Source of the DNA: the human T2T-CHM13v2.0 reference genome, Homo sapiens
Assembly (NCBI RefSeq): GCF_009914755.1
Contig: NC_060946.1
Direction: 5' to 3' (one strand)
Length of the DNA stretch: 64,000 nucleotides
A program made the position numbers and the translations under genes. Each line of letters opens with the position of its first letter. Position 1 is the stretch's first letter. The notes under the pieces are model-generated. The model did no database searches. It was given only the letters and a program-made list of their open reading frames with translations, and was not told where the DNA came from. Below are positions 36,201 to 43,782 of the stretch, piece after piece.

Positions 36201-36487
36201 GAAAAGAATGAAAACTGAGACAGATGAAGTAAAATTATATTTGCAAATAATAAGATTGAATTCCTGGAAAACACAAAGAAATTAACTGGAAGACTGTTTT
36301 TAAAGGCAGTAAAATTAATATGAAAAACAAATGGACTTCAGACATACAAACAACAACTATTTAGAAGACATAAAAGAATGGGGAGGTTCCAAGATTACCA
36401 AATAGGAACAACTCCAGTCTACAGCCCCCAGTGTGAGTGACACAGATGGGTGATTTCTGCATTTCCAACTGAGGTACCAGGTTCATC

Positions 36488-36814
36488 TCACTGGGGCTTG
36501 TCAGACAGTGGGTGCAGCCCACAGAGTGTGAGCCGAAGCAGGGCAGGGCATCGCCTCACCCGGGAAGCGCAAGGGGTTGGAGAATTCCCTTTCCTAGCCA
36601 AGGGAAGCCATGACAGACCGTACCTGGAAAATCGGGACACTCCCACCCTAATACTGTGCTTTTCCAATGGTCTTAGCAAATGGCACACCAGGAGATTATA
36701 TCCCATGCATGACTCAGATGGTCCCACGCCCACGGAGCCTCGCTCACTGCTAGCACAGCAGTCTGAGATCGAACTGCAAGGCAGCAGCGAGGCTGGGGGA
36801 CGGGCGCCCACCAT
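36488..36814 (-). CDS. L1 ORF0 homolog (antisense ORF in L1 5'UTR), 108 aa, open
   Basis: MVGARPPASLLPCSSISDCCASSERGSVGVGPSE matches the ORF0 N-terminus (MAGAPPPASLPPCSLISDCCAS...); expression unknown. Confidence 0.6.
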   Translation of the reverse strand: MVGARPPASLLPCSSISDCCASSERGSVGVGPSESCMGYNLLVCHLLRPLEKHSIRVGVSRFSRYGLSWLPLARKGNSPTPCASRVRRCPALLRLTLCGLHPLSDKPQ

Positions 36815-38471
36815 TGCTGAGGCTTGGGTAGGTAAACAAAGTGGCCTGGAAGCTCAAACTGGGTGGAGTCCACCACAGCTCAAAGAGGCCTGCTTGCCTC
36901 TGTAGACTCCACCTTTGAGGGCAGGGCATAGCTGAACAAAAGGCAGCAGAAACTTCTGCAGACTTAAACGTCCCTGTCTGACAGCTTTGAAGAGAGTAGT
37001 GGTTCTCCCAGCATGGAGTTTGAGATCTGAGAACAGACAGACTGCCTCAAGTGGGTTCCTAACCCCTGAGTAGCCTAACTGGGAGACACCTCCCAGTAGG
37101 GGCCAACTGACACCTCATACAGCCAGGTGCCCCTACGAGACGAAGCTTCCAGAGGAAGGATCAGGCAGCAACATTTGCCATTCTGCAATATTTGCTGTTC
37201 TGCAGCCTCTCCTGGTGACACTCAGGCAAACAGGGTCTGGAGTGGACTCCAGCAAACTCCAGCAGACCTTCAGCTGAGGGTCCTGACTGTTAGAAGGAAA
37301 ACTAACACACAGAAAGGACATCCACACCAAAACCCCATCTGCACATCACCATCATCAAAGACTAAAGGTAGATAAAACCACAAAAATGGGGAAAAACCAG
37401 AGCAGAAAAGCTGCAAATTCTAAAAATAAGAGCACCTCTTCTCCTCCAAAGGAACGAAGCTCCTCGCCAGCAACGGAACAAAGCTGAACAGAGAATGACT
37501 TCGACGGTTGAGAGAAGAAGGCTTCAGATGATCGGTAGTAACAAACTTCTCCGAGCTAAAGGAGGATGTTCGAAACCACTGCAAAGAAGCTAAAAACCTT
37601 GAAAAAAGATTGGATGAATGGCTAACTAGAATAAACAGCGTAGAGAAGATGTTAAATGACCTGATGGAGCTGAAAACCATGGCATGAGAACTACGTGACA
37701 CATGCACAAGCTTCAGCAGCCGATTCGATCAAGTGGAAGAAAGGGTATCAGTGATTGAAGATCAAATGAATGAAATGAAGCGAGAAGACAAGTTTAGAGA
37801 AAAAAGAGTGAAAAGAAATGAACAGAGCCTCCAAGAAATATGGGACTATGTGAAAAGACCAAATCTACGTCTGATTGGTGTACTTGAAAGTCATGGGGAG
37901 AATGGAACCAAGTTGGAAAACACTCTCAGGATATTATCCAGGAGAACTTCCCCAACCTAGCAAGGCAGGCCAACATTCAAATTCAGGAAATACAGAGAAC
38001 GCCACAAAGATACTCCTCCAGAAGAGCAACTCTAAGACACGTAATTGTCAGATTCACCAAAGTTGAAATGAAGGAAAAAATATTAAGGGCAGCCAGAGAG
38101 AAAGGTCGGGTTGCCCACAAAGGGAAGCCCATCAGACTAACAGCAGATGTCTCGGCAGAAACTCTACAAGCCAGAAGAGAGTGGGGGCCAATATTCAACA
38201 TTCTTAAAGAAAAGAATTTTCAACCAAGAATTTCATACCCAGCCAAACTAAGCTTCATAAGTGAAGGAGAAATAAAATCCTTTACAGACAAGCAAATGCT
38301 GAGAGATTTTGTCACCACCAGGCCTGCCTTACAAAGCTCCTGGAGGAAGCACTAAACATGGAAAGGAACAACCGGTACCAGCCACTGCAAAAACATGCCA
38401 AACTGTAAAGACCATTGATGCTAGGAAGAAACTGCATCAACTAATGAGCAAAATAACCAGCTGACATCATA

Positions 38472-41400
38472 ATGACAGGATCAAATTCACACATAACAAT
38501 ATTAACCTTAAATGTAAATGGACTAAATGCTCCAATTAAAAGACACAGACTGGCAAACTGGATGAAGAGTCAAGACCCATCAGTGTGCTATATTCAGGAG
38601 ACCCAGCTCACCTGCAGAGACACACATAGGCTCAAAATAAAGGAATGGAGGAAGATCTACCAAGCAAATGGAAAACAACAAAAAGCAGGAGTTGCAATCC
38701 TAGCCTCTGATAAAACAGACTTTAAATAAACAAAGATCAAAAGACACAAAGAAGGCCATTACATAATGGTAAAGGGATCAATTCAACAAGAAGAGCTAAC
38801 TATCCTAAATATATATGCACTCAATACAGGAGTACCCAAATTCATAAAGCAAGTCCTTAGAGACCTACAAAGAGACTTAGACTCCCACACAATAATAATG
38901 GGAGATTTTAACACCCCACTGTCAACATTAAACAGATCAATGAGACAGAAAGTTAAAAAGGACATCCAGGAATTGAACTCAGCTCAGCACCAAGCGGATC
39001 TAATAGACATCTACAGAACTCTCCACCCCAAATCAACAGAATATACATTCTTCTCAGCACCACATCACACTTATTCCAAAATTGACCACATAGTTGGAAG
39101 TAAAGCACTCCCCAGCAAATGTAAAAGAACAGAAATTATAACAAATTGTCTCTCAGACCACAGTGCAATCAAACTAGAACTCAGGATTAAGAAACTCACT
39201 CGAAACCACTCAACTACATGGAAACTGAACAACCTGCTCCTGAATGACTACTGGGTACATAACGAAATGAAGGCAGAAGTAAAGATGTTCTTTGAAACCA
39301 ATGAGAACAAAGACACAACATGCCAGAATCTCTGGGACACATTTAAAGCAGTGTGTAGAGGGAAATTTATAGCACTAAATGCCCACAAGAGAAAGCAGGA
39401 AAGATCTAAAATTGACACCCTAACATCACAATTAAAAGAACTTGAGAAGCAAGAGCAAACACGTGCAAAAGCTAGCAGAAGGCAAGAAATAACTAAGATC
39501 AGAGCAGAACTGAAGGAGACAGAGACACAAAAAACCCTTCAAAAAATCAAATGGAGGAGGTGGTTTTCTGAAAAGATCAACAAAATTGATAGACCACTAG
39601 CAAGACTAATAGAGAAGAAAAGAGAGAAGAATCAAATAGACACAATAAAAAATGATAAAGGGGATACCACCACCGATCCCACGGAAATACAAACTACCAT
39701 CAGAGAATATTATAAACACCTCTATGCAAATAAACTAAAAAGTCTAGAAGAAATAGATAAATTCCTGGACACATACACCCTCCCAAGACTAAACCAGGAA
39801 GAAGGTGAATCCCTGAATACACCAATAACATGCTCTGAAATTGAGGCAATAATTAATAGCTTACCAACCAAAAAAAGTGCAGGACCAGACAGATTCACAG
39901 CCGAATTCTACCAGTGGTACAAAGAGGAGCTGGTACCATTCCTTCTGAAACTATTCCAATCAAAAGAAAAAGAGGCAATCCTCCCTAACTCATTTTATGA
40001 GGCCAGCATCACCCTGATACCAAAGCCTGGCAGAGACACAACAAAAAAAGAGAATTTTAGACCATTATCCGTGATGAACATCGATGCAAAAATCCTCAAT
40101 AAAATATTGGCAAACCAAATCCAGCAGCATATCAAAAGGCTTATCCATCACAATCAAGTTGGCTTCATCCCTGGGATGCAAGGCTGGTTCAACATACACA
40201 AATCAATAAATGTAATCCAGCATATAAACAGAATCAAAGACAAAAGCCACATGATTATCTCAATAGATGCAGTAAAGGTCTTTGACAAAATTCAAGAGTG
40301 CTTCATGCTAAAAACTCTCAATAAACTAGGTATTGATGGGACGTATCTCAAAATCATAAGAGCTATTTATGACAACCCACAGCCAATGTCATACTGAATG
40401 GGCAAAAACTGGAAGCATTCCTTTTGAAAACTGGCACAAGACAGGGATGCCCTCTCTCACAACTCCTATTCGACATAGTGTTGGAAGTTCTGGCCAGGGC
40501 AATCAGGCAGGAGAAAGAAATAAAGGGTATTCGATTAGGAAAAGAAGAAGTCAAATTGTCCCTGTTTGTAGATGACATGGTTGTATATCTAGAAAACCCC
40601 ATCATCTCAGCCCAAAATCTCCTTAAGCCGATAAGCAGCTTCAGCAAAGTCTCAGGATAAAAAAATCAATGTGCAAAAATCACAAGCATTCCTATACACC
40701 AATAACAGACAAACAGAGAGCCAAATCATGAGCGAACTCCCATTCACAATTGCTTCAAAGAGAATAAAATACCTAGGAATCCAGCTTACAAGGGATGTGA
40801 AGGGCCTCTTCAAGGAGAACTACAAATGACCACTCAATGAAATAAAAGAGGACACAAACAAATGGAAGAACATTCCATGCTCATGGATACGAAGAATCAA
40901 TATCATGAAAATAGCCATACTGCTCAAGGTAATTTATAGATTCAATGCCATCCCCATCAAGCTACCAATGACTTTCTTCACAGAATTGGAAAAAAACTTC
41001 TTTAAAGCTCATATGGAACCAAAACAGAGCCTGCATTGCCAAGACAATCCTAAGCCAAAAGAATAAAGCTGGAGGCATCAAGCTACCTGACTTCAAACTA
41101 TACTACAAGGCTACAGTAACCAAAACAGCATGGTGCTGGTACCAAAACAGAGATATAGATCAATGGAACAAAACAGAGCCCTCTGAAATAATACCACACA
41201 TCTACAACCATCTGATCTTTGACAAACCTGACAAAAACAAGAAATGGGGAAAGGATTCCCTATTTAATAAATGGTGCTGGGAAAACGGACTAGCCATATG
41301 TAGAAAGCTGAAACTGGATCCCCTCCTTACCCCTTGTACAAAAATTAATTCAAGATGGATTAAAGACTTAAATGTTAGACCTAAAACCATAAAAACCCTA

Positions 41401-43363: not shown

Positions 43364-43369
43364 GACCTA

Positions 43370-43660
43370 GGCCAGGCACGGTGGCTCACCCTTGTAATCC
43401 CAGCACTTTGGGAGGCCGAGGCGGGCAGATCACGAGGTCAGGAAATCAAGACCACGGTGAAACCCCGTCTCTACTAGAAATACAAAAAATTAGCTTGGCT
43501 TGGTGGCGGGCCCCTGTAGTCCCAGCTACTAGGAGAGGCTGAGGCAGGAGAATGGCGGGAACCCGGGAGGCGGAGCTTGCAGTGAGCCGAGATCACGCCA
43601 CTGCACTCCAGCCTGGGCGACAGAGCGAGACACCGTCTCAAAAAAAAAAAAAAAAAAAAA
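43370..43660 (+). mobile_element. AluY of the 12-bp-deletion lineage (AluYd/Yc3-type)
   Basis: 'aagaccacggtgaaacc' lacks 'tcctggctaaca'; also 'ggagaggctgagg'. Confidence 0.85.
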
Positions 43661-43782
43661 CATAAAAATAATAAATTATCCCCTTTATAGTAACAACAAA
43701 AAAAGATTAATAATCTAAGAATAAAGTTGGCAAAAAAAGTACAAGATCTATATGATAAAATCTTTTTAAACTACTTAGAGGC

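What the first reader, a model, noticed from the sequence alone, without database searches (positions are those of the whole stretch)
36365..43676. L1 3' transduction of about 835 bp terminated at the poly(A) site of a captured MSTA LTR
Seen: the full-length L1PA's own poly(A) (about 42500-42520) is not followed by its left TSD ('aagacataaaagaat', 36365-36379). Foreign sequence follows instead (42521-43355) and ends in an MSTA LTR cut about 20 nt after its ATTAAA (43331), with U5 missing, directly into an A-tract. TSD-like sequence reappears only here: 'aaaagaccta' (43360) and 'aaaacataaaaataat' (43657) flank a later AluY that re-duplicated the site. The old L1M ORF2 broken at 36379 appears to resume collinearly at 43661. 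Established: L1 read-through mobilises 3' flanks and uses downstream poly(A) signals. Inference: the whole 7-kb block is one insertion event, and the transduced piece is a tag for the source L1 elsewhere in the genome.
Basis: partly seen in the sequence, partly recalled or inferred. Interest (0 to 1): 0.8.

Follow-up and report, generated by a model that had tools for sequence, protein, structure and literature searches.

The report
Two-step L1 3' transduction fossil
A dead full-length L1 retrotransposon in a TTC28 intron drags along two pieces of foreign DNA picked up one after the other from chromosomes 12 and 7, a tidy but ordinary example of a known way that L1 elements shuffle DNA.

Summary

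**Structure.** A full-length, ORF-broken L1PA (36380-42517) is followed by 839 nt of non-L1 DNA. The block sits between copies of one 15-16-nt target-site duplication. An Alu later split the 3' copy.

**Refinement.** The foreign DNA is two tags, not one.
- Tag 1 (42518-42584) matches only chr12. It ends 20 nt after an AATAAA and is followed by A8.
- Tag 2 (to 43356) matches only chr7, at 94% identity. It ends 20 nt after the ATTAAA of a MaLR LTR and is followed by A7.

**Sources.** Neither source site carries an L1 in this genome. The chr7 homology starts at a TT/AAAA site. The chr12 homology starts in an Alu A-tail.

**One insertion.** The old L1 ORF2 on either side of the block is collinear on 20 uninterrupted reference copies.

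**Best reading (0.85).** A serial 3' transduction, chr12 to chr7 to chr22, through two progenitors that never fixed, roughly 13-30 Myr ago.

**Not tested.** No outgroup genome was available.

The mechanism is known and this is a clean new instance. Interest is low to moderate.

The parts
36205..36379 (+). Left half of the old L1 (L1M-like) ORF2 fragment that was the insertion target; its last 15 nt are the 5' TSD.
   Evidence: Aligns to 20 uninterrupted old-L1 ORF2 copies from about copy position 132 to about 322-333 (z 0.6-5.7). It reaches the junction (5 or fewer unaligned nt) in 11 of 20. The reference copy on chr2 is itself collinear with the window L1's ORF2 by tblastx.
36365..36379 (+). 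5' target-site duplication, AAGACATAAAAGAAT.
   Evidence: recurrence statistics.
36380..42517 (+). Full-length L1PA element (6138 nt), dead. ORF1 is at about 37386-38405 and ORF2 at about 38472-42295. Its own AATAAA is at 42507-42512 and A8 at 42510-42517.
   Evidence: Aligns end to end with an intact 6.03-kb L1 elsewhere on chr22 (L013): 5' UTR 82.2%, positions 879-6141 at 91.8%. Both ORFs are covered fully but split over 4 and 6 frame-shifted pieces, with 3 in-frame stops each. The longest ATG ORF is 543 aa.
37124..37257 (+). 134-nt 5' UTR segment (net 127 nt) that the intact young L1 lacks. It lies at the place of the 129-bp ZNF93-site deletion of L1PA3 and younger.
   Evidence: Gap between the two BLAST blocks: window L1 positions 745-878 against 7 nt in L013. 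Meaning taken from passages of PMC7110667.
42518..42584 (+). Tag 1: 67 nt derived from chr12 (G000:C12, about 97050664-97050733). AATAAA at 42559-42564, then 20 nt to the end.
   Evidence: The only non-self genome match is chr12, 91% (2 of 2 candidates are self and C12). 5 differences in 68 aligned sites plus 2 gap columns. At chr12 the sequence continues as unique DNA where chr22 has A8.
42585..42592 (+). Internal A8: remnant of the poly(A) tail of the first transduction event. Its last 4 A may equally be the AAAA of the chr7 site.
   Evidence: chr7 reads TT-AAAAGTAATTTGGG where chr22 reads AAAAAAAAGGAATTTGGG.
42593..43356 (+). Tag 2: 764-768 nt derived from chr7 (G000:C7:94147577-94148346). 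Its last roughly 330 nt are a MaLR (THE1/MST-type) LTR in sense orientation, starting near 43026 and truncated at its poly(A) site.
   Evidence: 93.8% over 771 columns to L009 8078-8847. K2P 0.056-0.060, 43 differences in 750 sites. The only high-identity non-self match in the genome for the unique part.
43331..43336 (+). ATTAAA poly(A) signal of the LTR. Cleavage comes 20 nt downstream, after 43356.
   Evidence: The chr7 copy carries the same ATTAAA and continues with about 58 more nt of LTR.
43357..43363 (+). Terminal A7: remnant of the poly(A) tail of the final insertion. It overlaps the start of the 3' TSD.
43362..43369 (+). First part of the 3' TSD (AAGACCTA). It is also the left copy of the Alu's own TSD.
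   Evidence: One mismatch to the first 8 nt of the 5' TSD.
43370..43659 (+). Later Alu insertion with an A20 tail, which split and partly re-duplicated the L1's 3' TSD.
   Evidence: Homology to Alus in L010. Flanking AAAAAAAGACCTA and AAAAAAAAACATA were read by eye. The name AluY is recalled, not tested.
43660..43672 (+). Second part of the 3' TSD (ACATAAAAATAAT).
   Evidence: With the preceding A's it matches the 5' TSD with 2 substitutions and 1 insertion.
43673..43781 (+). Right half of the old L1 ORF2 fragment, resuming where the left half stops.
   Evidence: Aligns to 20 of 20 reference copies (z 4.9-10.4), starting at copy position 318-331. 73.5% over 98 nt to the chr2 copy, E 4e-14.

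Best explanation
One retrotransposition event inserted a full-length L1PA RNA that carried two successively acquired 3' tags.

**Proposed history.**
1. A progenitor L1 sat in the A-tail of an old Alu on chr12. Its transcript ran past its own AATAAA and was polyadenylated 20 nt after the next AATAAA, adding tag 1 (67 nt).
2. That RNA inserted at a TT/AAAA site on chr7.
3. The new chr7 element was again read through, for about 765 nt. Its transcript was polyadenylated at the natural poly(A) site of a sense-oriented MaLR LTR, adding tag 2.
4. That RNA inserted by target-primed reverse transcription into an old L1 ORF2 fragment in what is now a TTC28 intron on chr22, making a 15-nt TSD.
5. An Alu later landed in the tail/TSD junction.

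**Shown.**
- The anatomy.
- The two unique source loci, and the direction of copying (the sources continue past the poly(A) sites).
- The absence of an L1 at both sources.
- The collinearity of the target flanks.

**Inferred.**
- That full-length progenitors once sat at chr12 and chr7 and were lost as alleles that never fixed.
- That the block arrived in one event.

**Age (inferred).** About 13-30 Myr, from 5.7% source-to-copy divergence. The element belongs to the L1PA lineage as it was before the 129-bp 5' UTR deletion.
For: - **Non-L1 DNA after an intact L1 3' end.** The L1's own AATAAA is present.
- **Both tags end the same way.** Each ends exactly 20 nt after a poly(A) signal and is followed by an A-run: AATAAA 42559-64 then A8, ATTAAA 43331-36 then A7.
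- **Each tag has one paralogue genome-wide.** Tag 2's unique part matches chr7 only, at 94%. The other 27 hits are short and 67-95% identical. Tag 1 matches chr12 only (2 of 2 candidates are self and C12).
- **Both sources run on as native sequence where chr22 has A-runs.** On chr7 the LTR is complete. This fixes the direction of copying.
- **The starts of homology are L1-endonuclease-type sites.** chr7 reads GGATT/AAAAGT. chr12 begins inside an A30 Alu tail.
- **The internal A8 has 4 more A than the chr7 site.** This is what a poly(A) tail abutting the chr7 flank would leave.
- **One TSD pair encloses everything**.
- **The target flanks abut on the reference copies.** The right flank aligns in 20 of 20 copies. 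The left flank reaches the junction in 11 of 20, with the gap on the copy between -7 and +17 nt. In 8 more the left alignment stops 17-44 nt short and the gap (39-55 nt) is of matching order. One of 20 is misaligned.
- **Ages agree.** Tag 2 K2P is 0.056-0.060. Tag 1 has 5 differences in 68 sites. The nearest L1 relatives are 92-94% identical over the last 810 nt (39 non-self copies scored, of 7,879 candidates).
- **The element keeps the roughly 129-nt 5' UTR segment** that was lost in L1PA3 and younger.
- **Unfixed sources are common today.** 51 of 268 L1 transduction sources were non-reference in PMC9311842, Table 4 (passages).
- **Lineages traced by stacked transductions are described for L1-Ta** in PMC6425141 (passages).
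Against: - **No L1 lies next to either source segment in this genome.** No + strand L1 3' end lies in the 8 kb upstream on chr7, and only Alus were found in the 10 kb around the chr12 site. The two progenitors are therefore inferred, not seen.
- **No outgroup genome could be examined.** 'One event' rests on the TSD, the collinearity and prior odds.
- **The TSD is A-rich and imperfect.** It differs by 2 substitutions and 1 insertion, and an Alu interrupts it. The inner junctions fit at edit distance 4, against 3 at the outer site.
- **An ambiguous junction.** The 9 nt after the internal A-run (AAAAGGAAT) resemble both the chr7 site (AAAAGTAAT) and the end of the 5' TSD (AAAAGAAT). That junction alone therefore cannot tell a single event from a nested one.
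- **The left-flank alignments are weak**, z 0.6-5.7.
- **Tag 1 offers only 68 sites for dating.**
Confidence: 0.85

Rival explanations
1. RNA-level recombination in a single TPRT event. The L1 reverse transcriptase started on a polyadenylated chr7 transcript that ended at the LTR's poly(A) site. It reached that RNA's 5' end and jumped to the poly(A) tail of an L1(+tag 1) RNA. No L1 ever sat on chr7.
For: No L1 is present at the chr7 source. At the junction chr22 reads ...AAAAAAAAGGAATTT where chr7 reads AAAAGTAATTT. The odd G could be an untemplated, cap-derived base, as is described for a capped template in PMC6425141 (passage). L1 chimeras with other RNAs are catalogued in bioRxiv 10.1101/2025.02.02.635956 (abstract and outline only).
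Against: The same trick would have to explain tag 1, which would need a 67-nt polyadenylated RNA starting inside an Alu A-tail. That is implausible, so this lineage demonstrably did read through at least once. The chr7 homology starts at a perfect TT/AAAA endonuclease site. That is expected for a lost L1 insertion but not for a transcription start. No promoter or transcript is known at that point (not testable here). A single T-to-G change in about 20 Myr is enough for the transduction model.
Confidence: 0.07
2. Two nested insertions. First a retrocopy of a chr7 transcript inserted into the old L1 with the 15-nt TSD. Later an L1 carrying tag 1 landed exactly at that retrocopy's 5' edge with an 8-nt TSD (AAAAGAAT).
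For: AAAAGGAAT after the internal A-run resembles the last 8 nt of the left flank, with one inserted base. The sequence at that junction is as compatible with this model as with the serial model.
Against: It needs an independent L1 to hit the exact 5' base of a 770-nt retrocopy in the same orientation. By my own rough estimate, not computed with a tool, the prior is of the order of 1e-6 per L1. It also needs an orphan retrocopy of an unannotated transcript. Finally, it still needs the chance likeness between the chr7 site and the chr22 TSD end.
Confidence: 0.03
3. DNA-level duplication or gene conversion copied chr7 and chr12 DNA next to a pre-existing L1, with no RNA intermediate.
For: None specific. 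It covers only the bare fact of paralogous segments.
Against: Both segments end 20 nt after a poly(A) signal, in A-runs that the sources lack. Both are in sense orientation behind an L1 3' end. One TSD encloses the block.
Confidence: 0.01

Closest known systems
L1 3' transduction: read-through of the weak L1 poly(A) signal and co-mobilisation of 3' flank. The first descriptions (Moran 1999; Goodier 2000; Pickeral 2000) are recalled and were not seen here. The process is described in passages of PMC5673974 and bioRxiv 10.1101/2021.07.12.451456.
   Same: The L1 3' end is followed by unique foreign DNA that ends at a downstream poly(A) signal plus an A-tail. The TSD encloses the whole unit. The foreign DNA maps to a unique locus elsewhere.
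   Different: Here the event is old (L1PA, about 13-30 Myr) and the source loci no longer hold, or never fixed, the progenitor L1. Most catalogued cases are L1HS with an identifiable source.
Serial or stacked transductions that define L1 transduction families. [quoted passage not shown] The serial transductions in tumours (Tubio 2014) and the AC002980 lineage (Macfarlane 2013) are recalled and were not seen.
   Same: Two tags in tandem are separated by an internal poly(A) remnant. The inner tag is the older one, and each maps to a different chromosome. Together they give a three-generation pedigree: chr12, then chr7, then chr22.
   Different: In the L1-Ta families the progenitors are present or polymorphic in living humans and can be assayed. 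Here both are gone, and only one descendant carries the tags in this genome.
Template-switch or RNA-recombination L1 chimeras, such as U6/L1 and mRNA/L1. See bioRxiv 10.1101/2025.02.02.635956 (abstract and outline only). Buzdin 2002 is recalled.
   Same: A composite insertion of L1 plus non-L1 RNA-derived sequence inside one TSD.
   Different: Known chimeras usually put the foreign RNA 5' of a truncated L1. Here the foreign DNA is 3' of a full-length L1, begins at endonuclease-type sites and ends at poly(A) sites, as read-through predicts.
The hot L1HS in TTC28 intron 1 (22q12.1), a prolific 3'-transducing source in colorectal cancer (PMC5673974, passages).
   Same: Same gene, same strand, and also associated with 3' transduction.
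   Different: It is a different element. By position it is the intact L1 at G000:C22:29124726-29130759, about 107 kb beyond the window's right end. The window's L1 is an old, broken offspring copy, not a source.

Membership tests
L1 3' transduction | The L1 3' end, with its own poly(A) signal, is followed directly by non-L1 sequence. | tested here: met
   AATAAA at 42507-12 and A8, then DNA with no L1 homology.
L1 3' transduction | The transduced sequence ends 10-30 nt after a poly(A) signal and is followed by a poly(A) tail. | tested here: met
   Tag 1: AATAAA + 20 nt + A8. Tag 2: ATTAAA + 20 nt + A7.
L1 3' transduction | The target-site duplication flanks the L1 plus the transduced DNA, not the L1 alone. 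| tested here: met
   The 15-mer at 36365-79 recurs after the last A-run with 2 substitutions and 1 insertion, split by an Alu. No better match follows either inner A-run. The margin is small because the TSD is A-rich.
L1 3' transduction | The transduced DNA maps to a unique locus where the sequence continues past the poly(A) site. | tested here: met
   chr7 at 93.8% over 771 columns, with the LTR complete there. chr12 at 88.6-91%.
L1 3' transduction | A progenitor L1 lies immediately 5' of the source segment. | tested here: not met
   No + strand L1 3' end lies upstream of L009:8078 or L010:7964. This is expected if the progenitor alleles never fixed, so it lowers certainty without excluding membership.
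L1 3' transduction | An empty orthologous site in species that diverged before the insertion. | not testable with these tools
   Only the human T2T genome is held ('It has no relatives here').
Serial (multi-generation) transduction | Two or more tags in tandem, each with its own poly(A) signal and A-run, mapping to different loci. | tested here: met
   Tag 1 maps to chr12 and tag 2 to chr7, with an internal A8 between them.
L1PA element predating ZNF93 escape (long-form L1PA3 to about L1PA6) | Retains the roughly 129-bp 5' UTR segment that is deleted in L1PA3 and younger. | tested here: met
   134 nt (net 127) are present at 37124-37257 and absent from the intact young L1 in L013. The definition comes from PMC7110667.
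   No repeat library is held. Only indirect dating was possible: 91.8% to a young L1, 92-94% to the nearest relatives and tag K2P about 0.06.
MSTA (MaLR) solitary LTR | A match to the MSTA consensus over its full length. | not testable with these tools
   No repeat library is held. That it is a MaLR/MST-type LTR is my recollection of the consensus. What is shown is that the chr7 copy extends about 58 nt beyond the poly(A) site.
Template-switch L1 chimera | The foreign RNA is joined at its 5' end (cap) to another template, without an endonuclease-type site at the source. | tested here: inconclusive
   The source junction is a TT/AAAA site, which favours a lost L1 insertion. One odd G at the junction would also fit an untemplated base.

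The most novel reading that the evidence does not exclude
The composite was not built through two lost genomic progenitors. It was built at the RNA/cDNA level in one event: the L1 reverse transcriptase copied a polyadenylated chr7 transcript that ended at the LTR, then jumped onto the tail of an L1 RNA. That would make this a 3'-side L1 chimera that mimics a transduction. Some 'transductions with empty source sites' in old L1 families would then be recombination products rather than pedigrees.
Probability: 0.07. Interest if true: 0.45.

Novelty: new member of a known kind. Interest (0 to 1): 0.3.

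Why it matters
The element is a small fossil pedigree. Three generations of one L1PA lineage (chr12, then chr7, then chr22) can be read from a single locus, and both intermediate 'master' copies are absent from the genome. This illustrates that L1 lineages propagated largely through alleles that never fixed, and that old transductions can reveal such ghosts.

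It also shows an L1 read-through borrowing the natural poly(A) site of an LTR.

The practical value is modest:
- The tags give a dated marker for primate phylogeny at three loci.
- The case is a caution that a single 'transduced' block may be composite.
- It should not be confused with the cancer-relevant hot L1 in TTC28 intron 1, which lies about 107 kb beyond the window.

Nothing suggests a present-day function.

Tried and rejected
- **Flanks against the window's own L1.** tblastx and blastn of 33500-36379 and 43661-47500 gave nothing at E 1e-3 or better. Only noise appeared at E 10 or better. The flanks are too diverged from L1PA for this.
- **Genome DNA search with each flank.** 36205-36379 and 43661-43781 returned only themselves.
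- **Stop-free translated pieces of the flanks against PDB sequences.** No L1 ORF2p hit; only chance hits at E 0.15-1.1.
- **What did work.** A six-frame genome search with 29 aa of the right flank gave one weak hit, E 0.95. It proved to be an old L1 ORF2 copy and seeded the 20-copy collinearity test.
- **Siblings carrying either tag.** None found.
- **A close L1 sibling.** None above 94% among the 39 non-self copies scored, of 7,879 candidates.
- **Papers not held.** The ids I recalled for the published T2T repeat paper and for Khan 2006.
- **Possible prior listing.** The T2T transduction catalogue (Table S13 of bioRxiv 10.1101/2021.07.12.451456) could list this locus, but preprint supplements are closed.
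- **Literature searches.** Searches turned up no mention of this element. That is not proof that it is unpublished.
- **Rejected idea.** That this is the known TTC28 hot L1. Position and state rule it out.

Full report
**1. Observation**

The window is T2T-CHM13 chr22:28954001-29018000, inside a TTC28 intron (hub table).
- AAGACATAAAAGAAT at 36365-36379.
- A canonical L1 5' end at 36380.
- The L1 3' end, with its own AATAAA (42507-42512) and A8 (42510-42517).
- DNA with no L1 homology up to 43356.
- ATTAAA at 43331-43336, followed by exactly 20 nt and then A7.
- AAGACCTA at 43362-43369, directly left of an Alu (43370-43659, A20 tail).
- ACATAAAAATAAT at 43660-43672, directly right of the Alu.

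**2. The L1**

The element is 6138 nt long. It aligns end to end with an intact 6.03-kb L1 fetched from the same chromosome (L013): 82.2% over the first 744 nt and 91.8% over positions 879-6141.

Between those two blocks the window's L1 has 134 nt (37124-37257) where the young L1 has 7. This lies at the place of the 129-bp 5' UTR deletion. According to passages of PMC7110667, that deletion arose in L1PA3 in the great-ape ancestor and let L1 escape ZNF93. The same paper places L1PA4 in the ape ancestor and L1PA5 in the human-rhesus ancestor. The element therefore predates that deletion.

Both ORFs are present along their full length but broken. ORF1 falls into 4 frame-shifted pieces with 3 stops, and ORF2 into 6 pieces with 3 stops. 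The longest ATG ORF is 543 aa.

Its nearest relatives are 92-94% identical over its last 810 nt. Only 39 non-self copies were scored, out of 7,879 candidates.

**3. Where the foreign DNA comes from**

A search of the whole assembly with 42521-43020 listed 30 matches:
- itself;
- one long match on chr7 (94%, query 69-500);
- one match on chr12 (91%, query 1-66);
- 27 short matches (67-95%) to query 215-500, which point to an old interspersed repeat inside the piece.

BLAST against 10-kb fetches gave two alignments:
- 42589-43356 = L009 8078-8847 (chr7), 93.8% over 771 columns.
- 42501-42586 = L010 7948-8034 (chr12), 88.6% over 88 columns.

A dedicated search with 42509-42600 found only itself and chr12, 2 of 2 candidates. 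The 'about 835 bp' is therefore two pieces from two chromosomes, separated by an internal A8 (42585-42592).

**4. Direction of copying and mechanism**

At chr7 the LTR carries the same ATTAAA. It runs on for about 58 nt, to a typical LTR end, where chr22 has A7. At chr12 the sequence runs on as unique DNA where chr22 has A8. Tag 1 ends 20 nt after an AATAAA. Both tags are thus polyadenylated copies of transcripts of the chr12 and chr7 loci, not the reverse.

The chr7 homology begins at GGATT/AAAAGT, a textbook L1 endonuclease site. The chr12 homology begins inside the roughly 30-A tail of an old Alu, another favoured target. The internal A8 is 4 A longer than the AAAA of the chr7 site, as a poly(A) tail abutting that site would leave.

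The inner tag must be the older one. The order is therefore chr12, then chr7, then chr22.

Neither source has a + strand L1 next to it in this genome:
- chr7 has only minus-strand L1 5' pieces 5-8 kb away.
- chr12 has only Alus.

The two progenitors are inferred to have been alleles that never fixed. Unfixed sources are common among present-day transductions. In PMC9311842, Table 4, 51 of 268 L1 sources were non-reference (passages).

**5. One insertion?**

*TSD.* The TSD 15-mer recurs after the last A-run with 2 substitutions and 1 insertion. The G that is lost there is kept in the copy left of the Alu. Matches at edit distance 3 or less occur at 44 places in 64 kb, so a match at the expected spot has roughly a 1-2% chance. 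This is only modest evidence. The TSD is A-rich, and the inner A-runs give best fits at edit distance 4.

*Flank collinearity.* The flanks could not be matched to the window's own L1, to other genomic DNA or to ORF2p in the PDB. A six-frame search with 29 aa of the right flank did find an old L1 copy on chr2. That copy is collinear with L1 ORF2. With it, 19 more uninterrupted copies were retrieved.

On these 20 copies:
- The right flank (from 43673) aligns in 20 of 20 (z 4.9-10.4), starting at copy position 318-331.
- The left flank aligns more weakly (z 0.6-5.7), from about position 132.
- The left flank reaches the junction in 11 of 20, ending at 311-333. The gap between the two flanks on the copy is then -7 to +17 nt.
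- In 8 of 20 the left alignment stops 17-44 nt short, with a matching gap of 39-55 nt.
- One of 20 is misaligned.

The break falls at about ORF2 residue 755 by transfer through. The old L1 is thus one fragment split by a 7.3-kb insert.

**6. Age**

- Tag 2 differs from its source at 43 of 750 sites: K2P 0.060, or 0.056 without CpG sites.
- Tag 1 differs at 5 of 68 sites.
- That is about 3% per lineage. With substitution rates I recall (about 1-2.2e-9 per site per year) it gives roughly 13-30 Myr.
- This agrees with the 6-8% distance to the nearest L1 relatives and with the retained ZNF93 segment.

**7. Rivals**

*(a) Template switching onto an L1 RNA from a chr7 transcript.*
- It fits the empty chr7 site. 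It also fits one odd G at the junction (AAAAGG against AAAAGT), which could be an untemplated base.
- It cannot sensibly explain the 67-nt tag 1.
- It does not predict the TT/AAAA site.

*(b) Nested insertions: a retrocopy first, then L1+tag 1 with an 8-nt TSD.*
- This is formally compatible, because AAAAGGAAT resembles both the chr7 site and the end of the 5' TSD.
- It needs an L1 to land on the exact 5' base of a retrocopy.

*(c) DNA-level duplication.*
- The poly(A) boundaries contradict it.

**8. Comparison and verdict**

L1 3' transduction is a well-described mechanism (passages of PMC5673974 and of bioRxiv 10.1101/2021.07.12.451456). Stacked transductions are used to build L1-Ta pedigrees (PMC6425141). 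The T2T repeat paper catalogued 183 highest-confidence L1 3' transductions in this assembly. Its table could not be read, so this locus may already be listed.

The case is a clean, old, two-generation example with ghost progenitors and an LTR-supplied poly(A) site. It is a new member of a known kind and of low to moderate interest. It is not the cancer-active TTC28 L1. By position and intact ORFs (338 and 1275 aa), that element is the L1 at G000:C22:29124726-29130759, about 107 kb past the window's end.

Noticed in passing
L013 3727-9760 (G000:C22:29124726-29130759), about 107 kb beyond the window's right end: A full-length L1 with intact ORF1 (338 aa) and ORF2 (1275 aa). By its position in TTC28 intron 1 it corresponds to the known hot L1 that makes 3' transductions in colorectal cancer (PMC5673974). 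It is unrelated to the finding except as the reference I aligned against.
   Followed up: partly
window 42735-43020 (inside tag 2): 27 short matches (67-95% identity) on many chromosomes suggest that the 'unique' chr7-derived piece contains an old interspersed repeat upstream of the LTR.
   Followed up: no
window 42585-42601 versus 36372-36379: The 9 nt after the internal A-run (AAAAGGAAT) resemble both the chr7 source site (AAAAGTAAT) and the last 8 nt of the 5' TSD (AAAAGAAT). This chance likeness between two A-rich endonuclease-type sites leaves a nested-insertion model formally open.
   Followed up: partly
L010 7620-7985 (chr12 source): The old Alu at the chr12 source has the direct repeat ACAGCTCTAGG on both sides, with GAAGATG lying between its A-tail and the right-hand repeat. 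The chr22 tag begins with this GAA(A)GATG, so the lost L1 must have sat inside the Alu's A-tail.
   Followed up: partly
window 35885-36204, 43782-44086, about 44436-44676: Three more Alu copies crowd the same old L1 fragment. Exon 36028-36064 of the predicted lncRNA LOC101929594 (minus strand, hub table) falls inside the + strand Alu at 35885-36204. This looks like an antisense-Alu exonisation.
   Followed up: no
L009 19-1649 and 2987-3066 (chr7, minus strand): L1 5' UTR-like sequence in the opposite orientation lies 5-8 kb upstream of the chr7 source segment. It is not positioned or oriented to be the progenitor.
   Followed up: no
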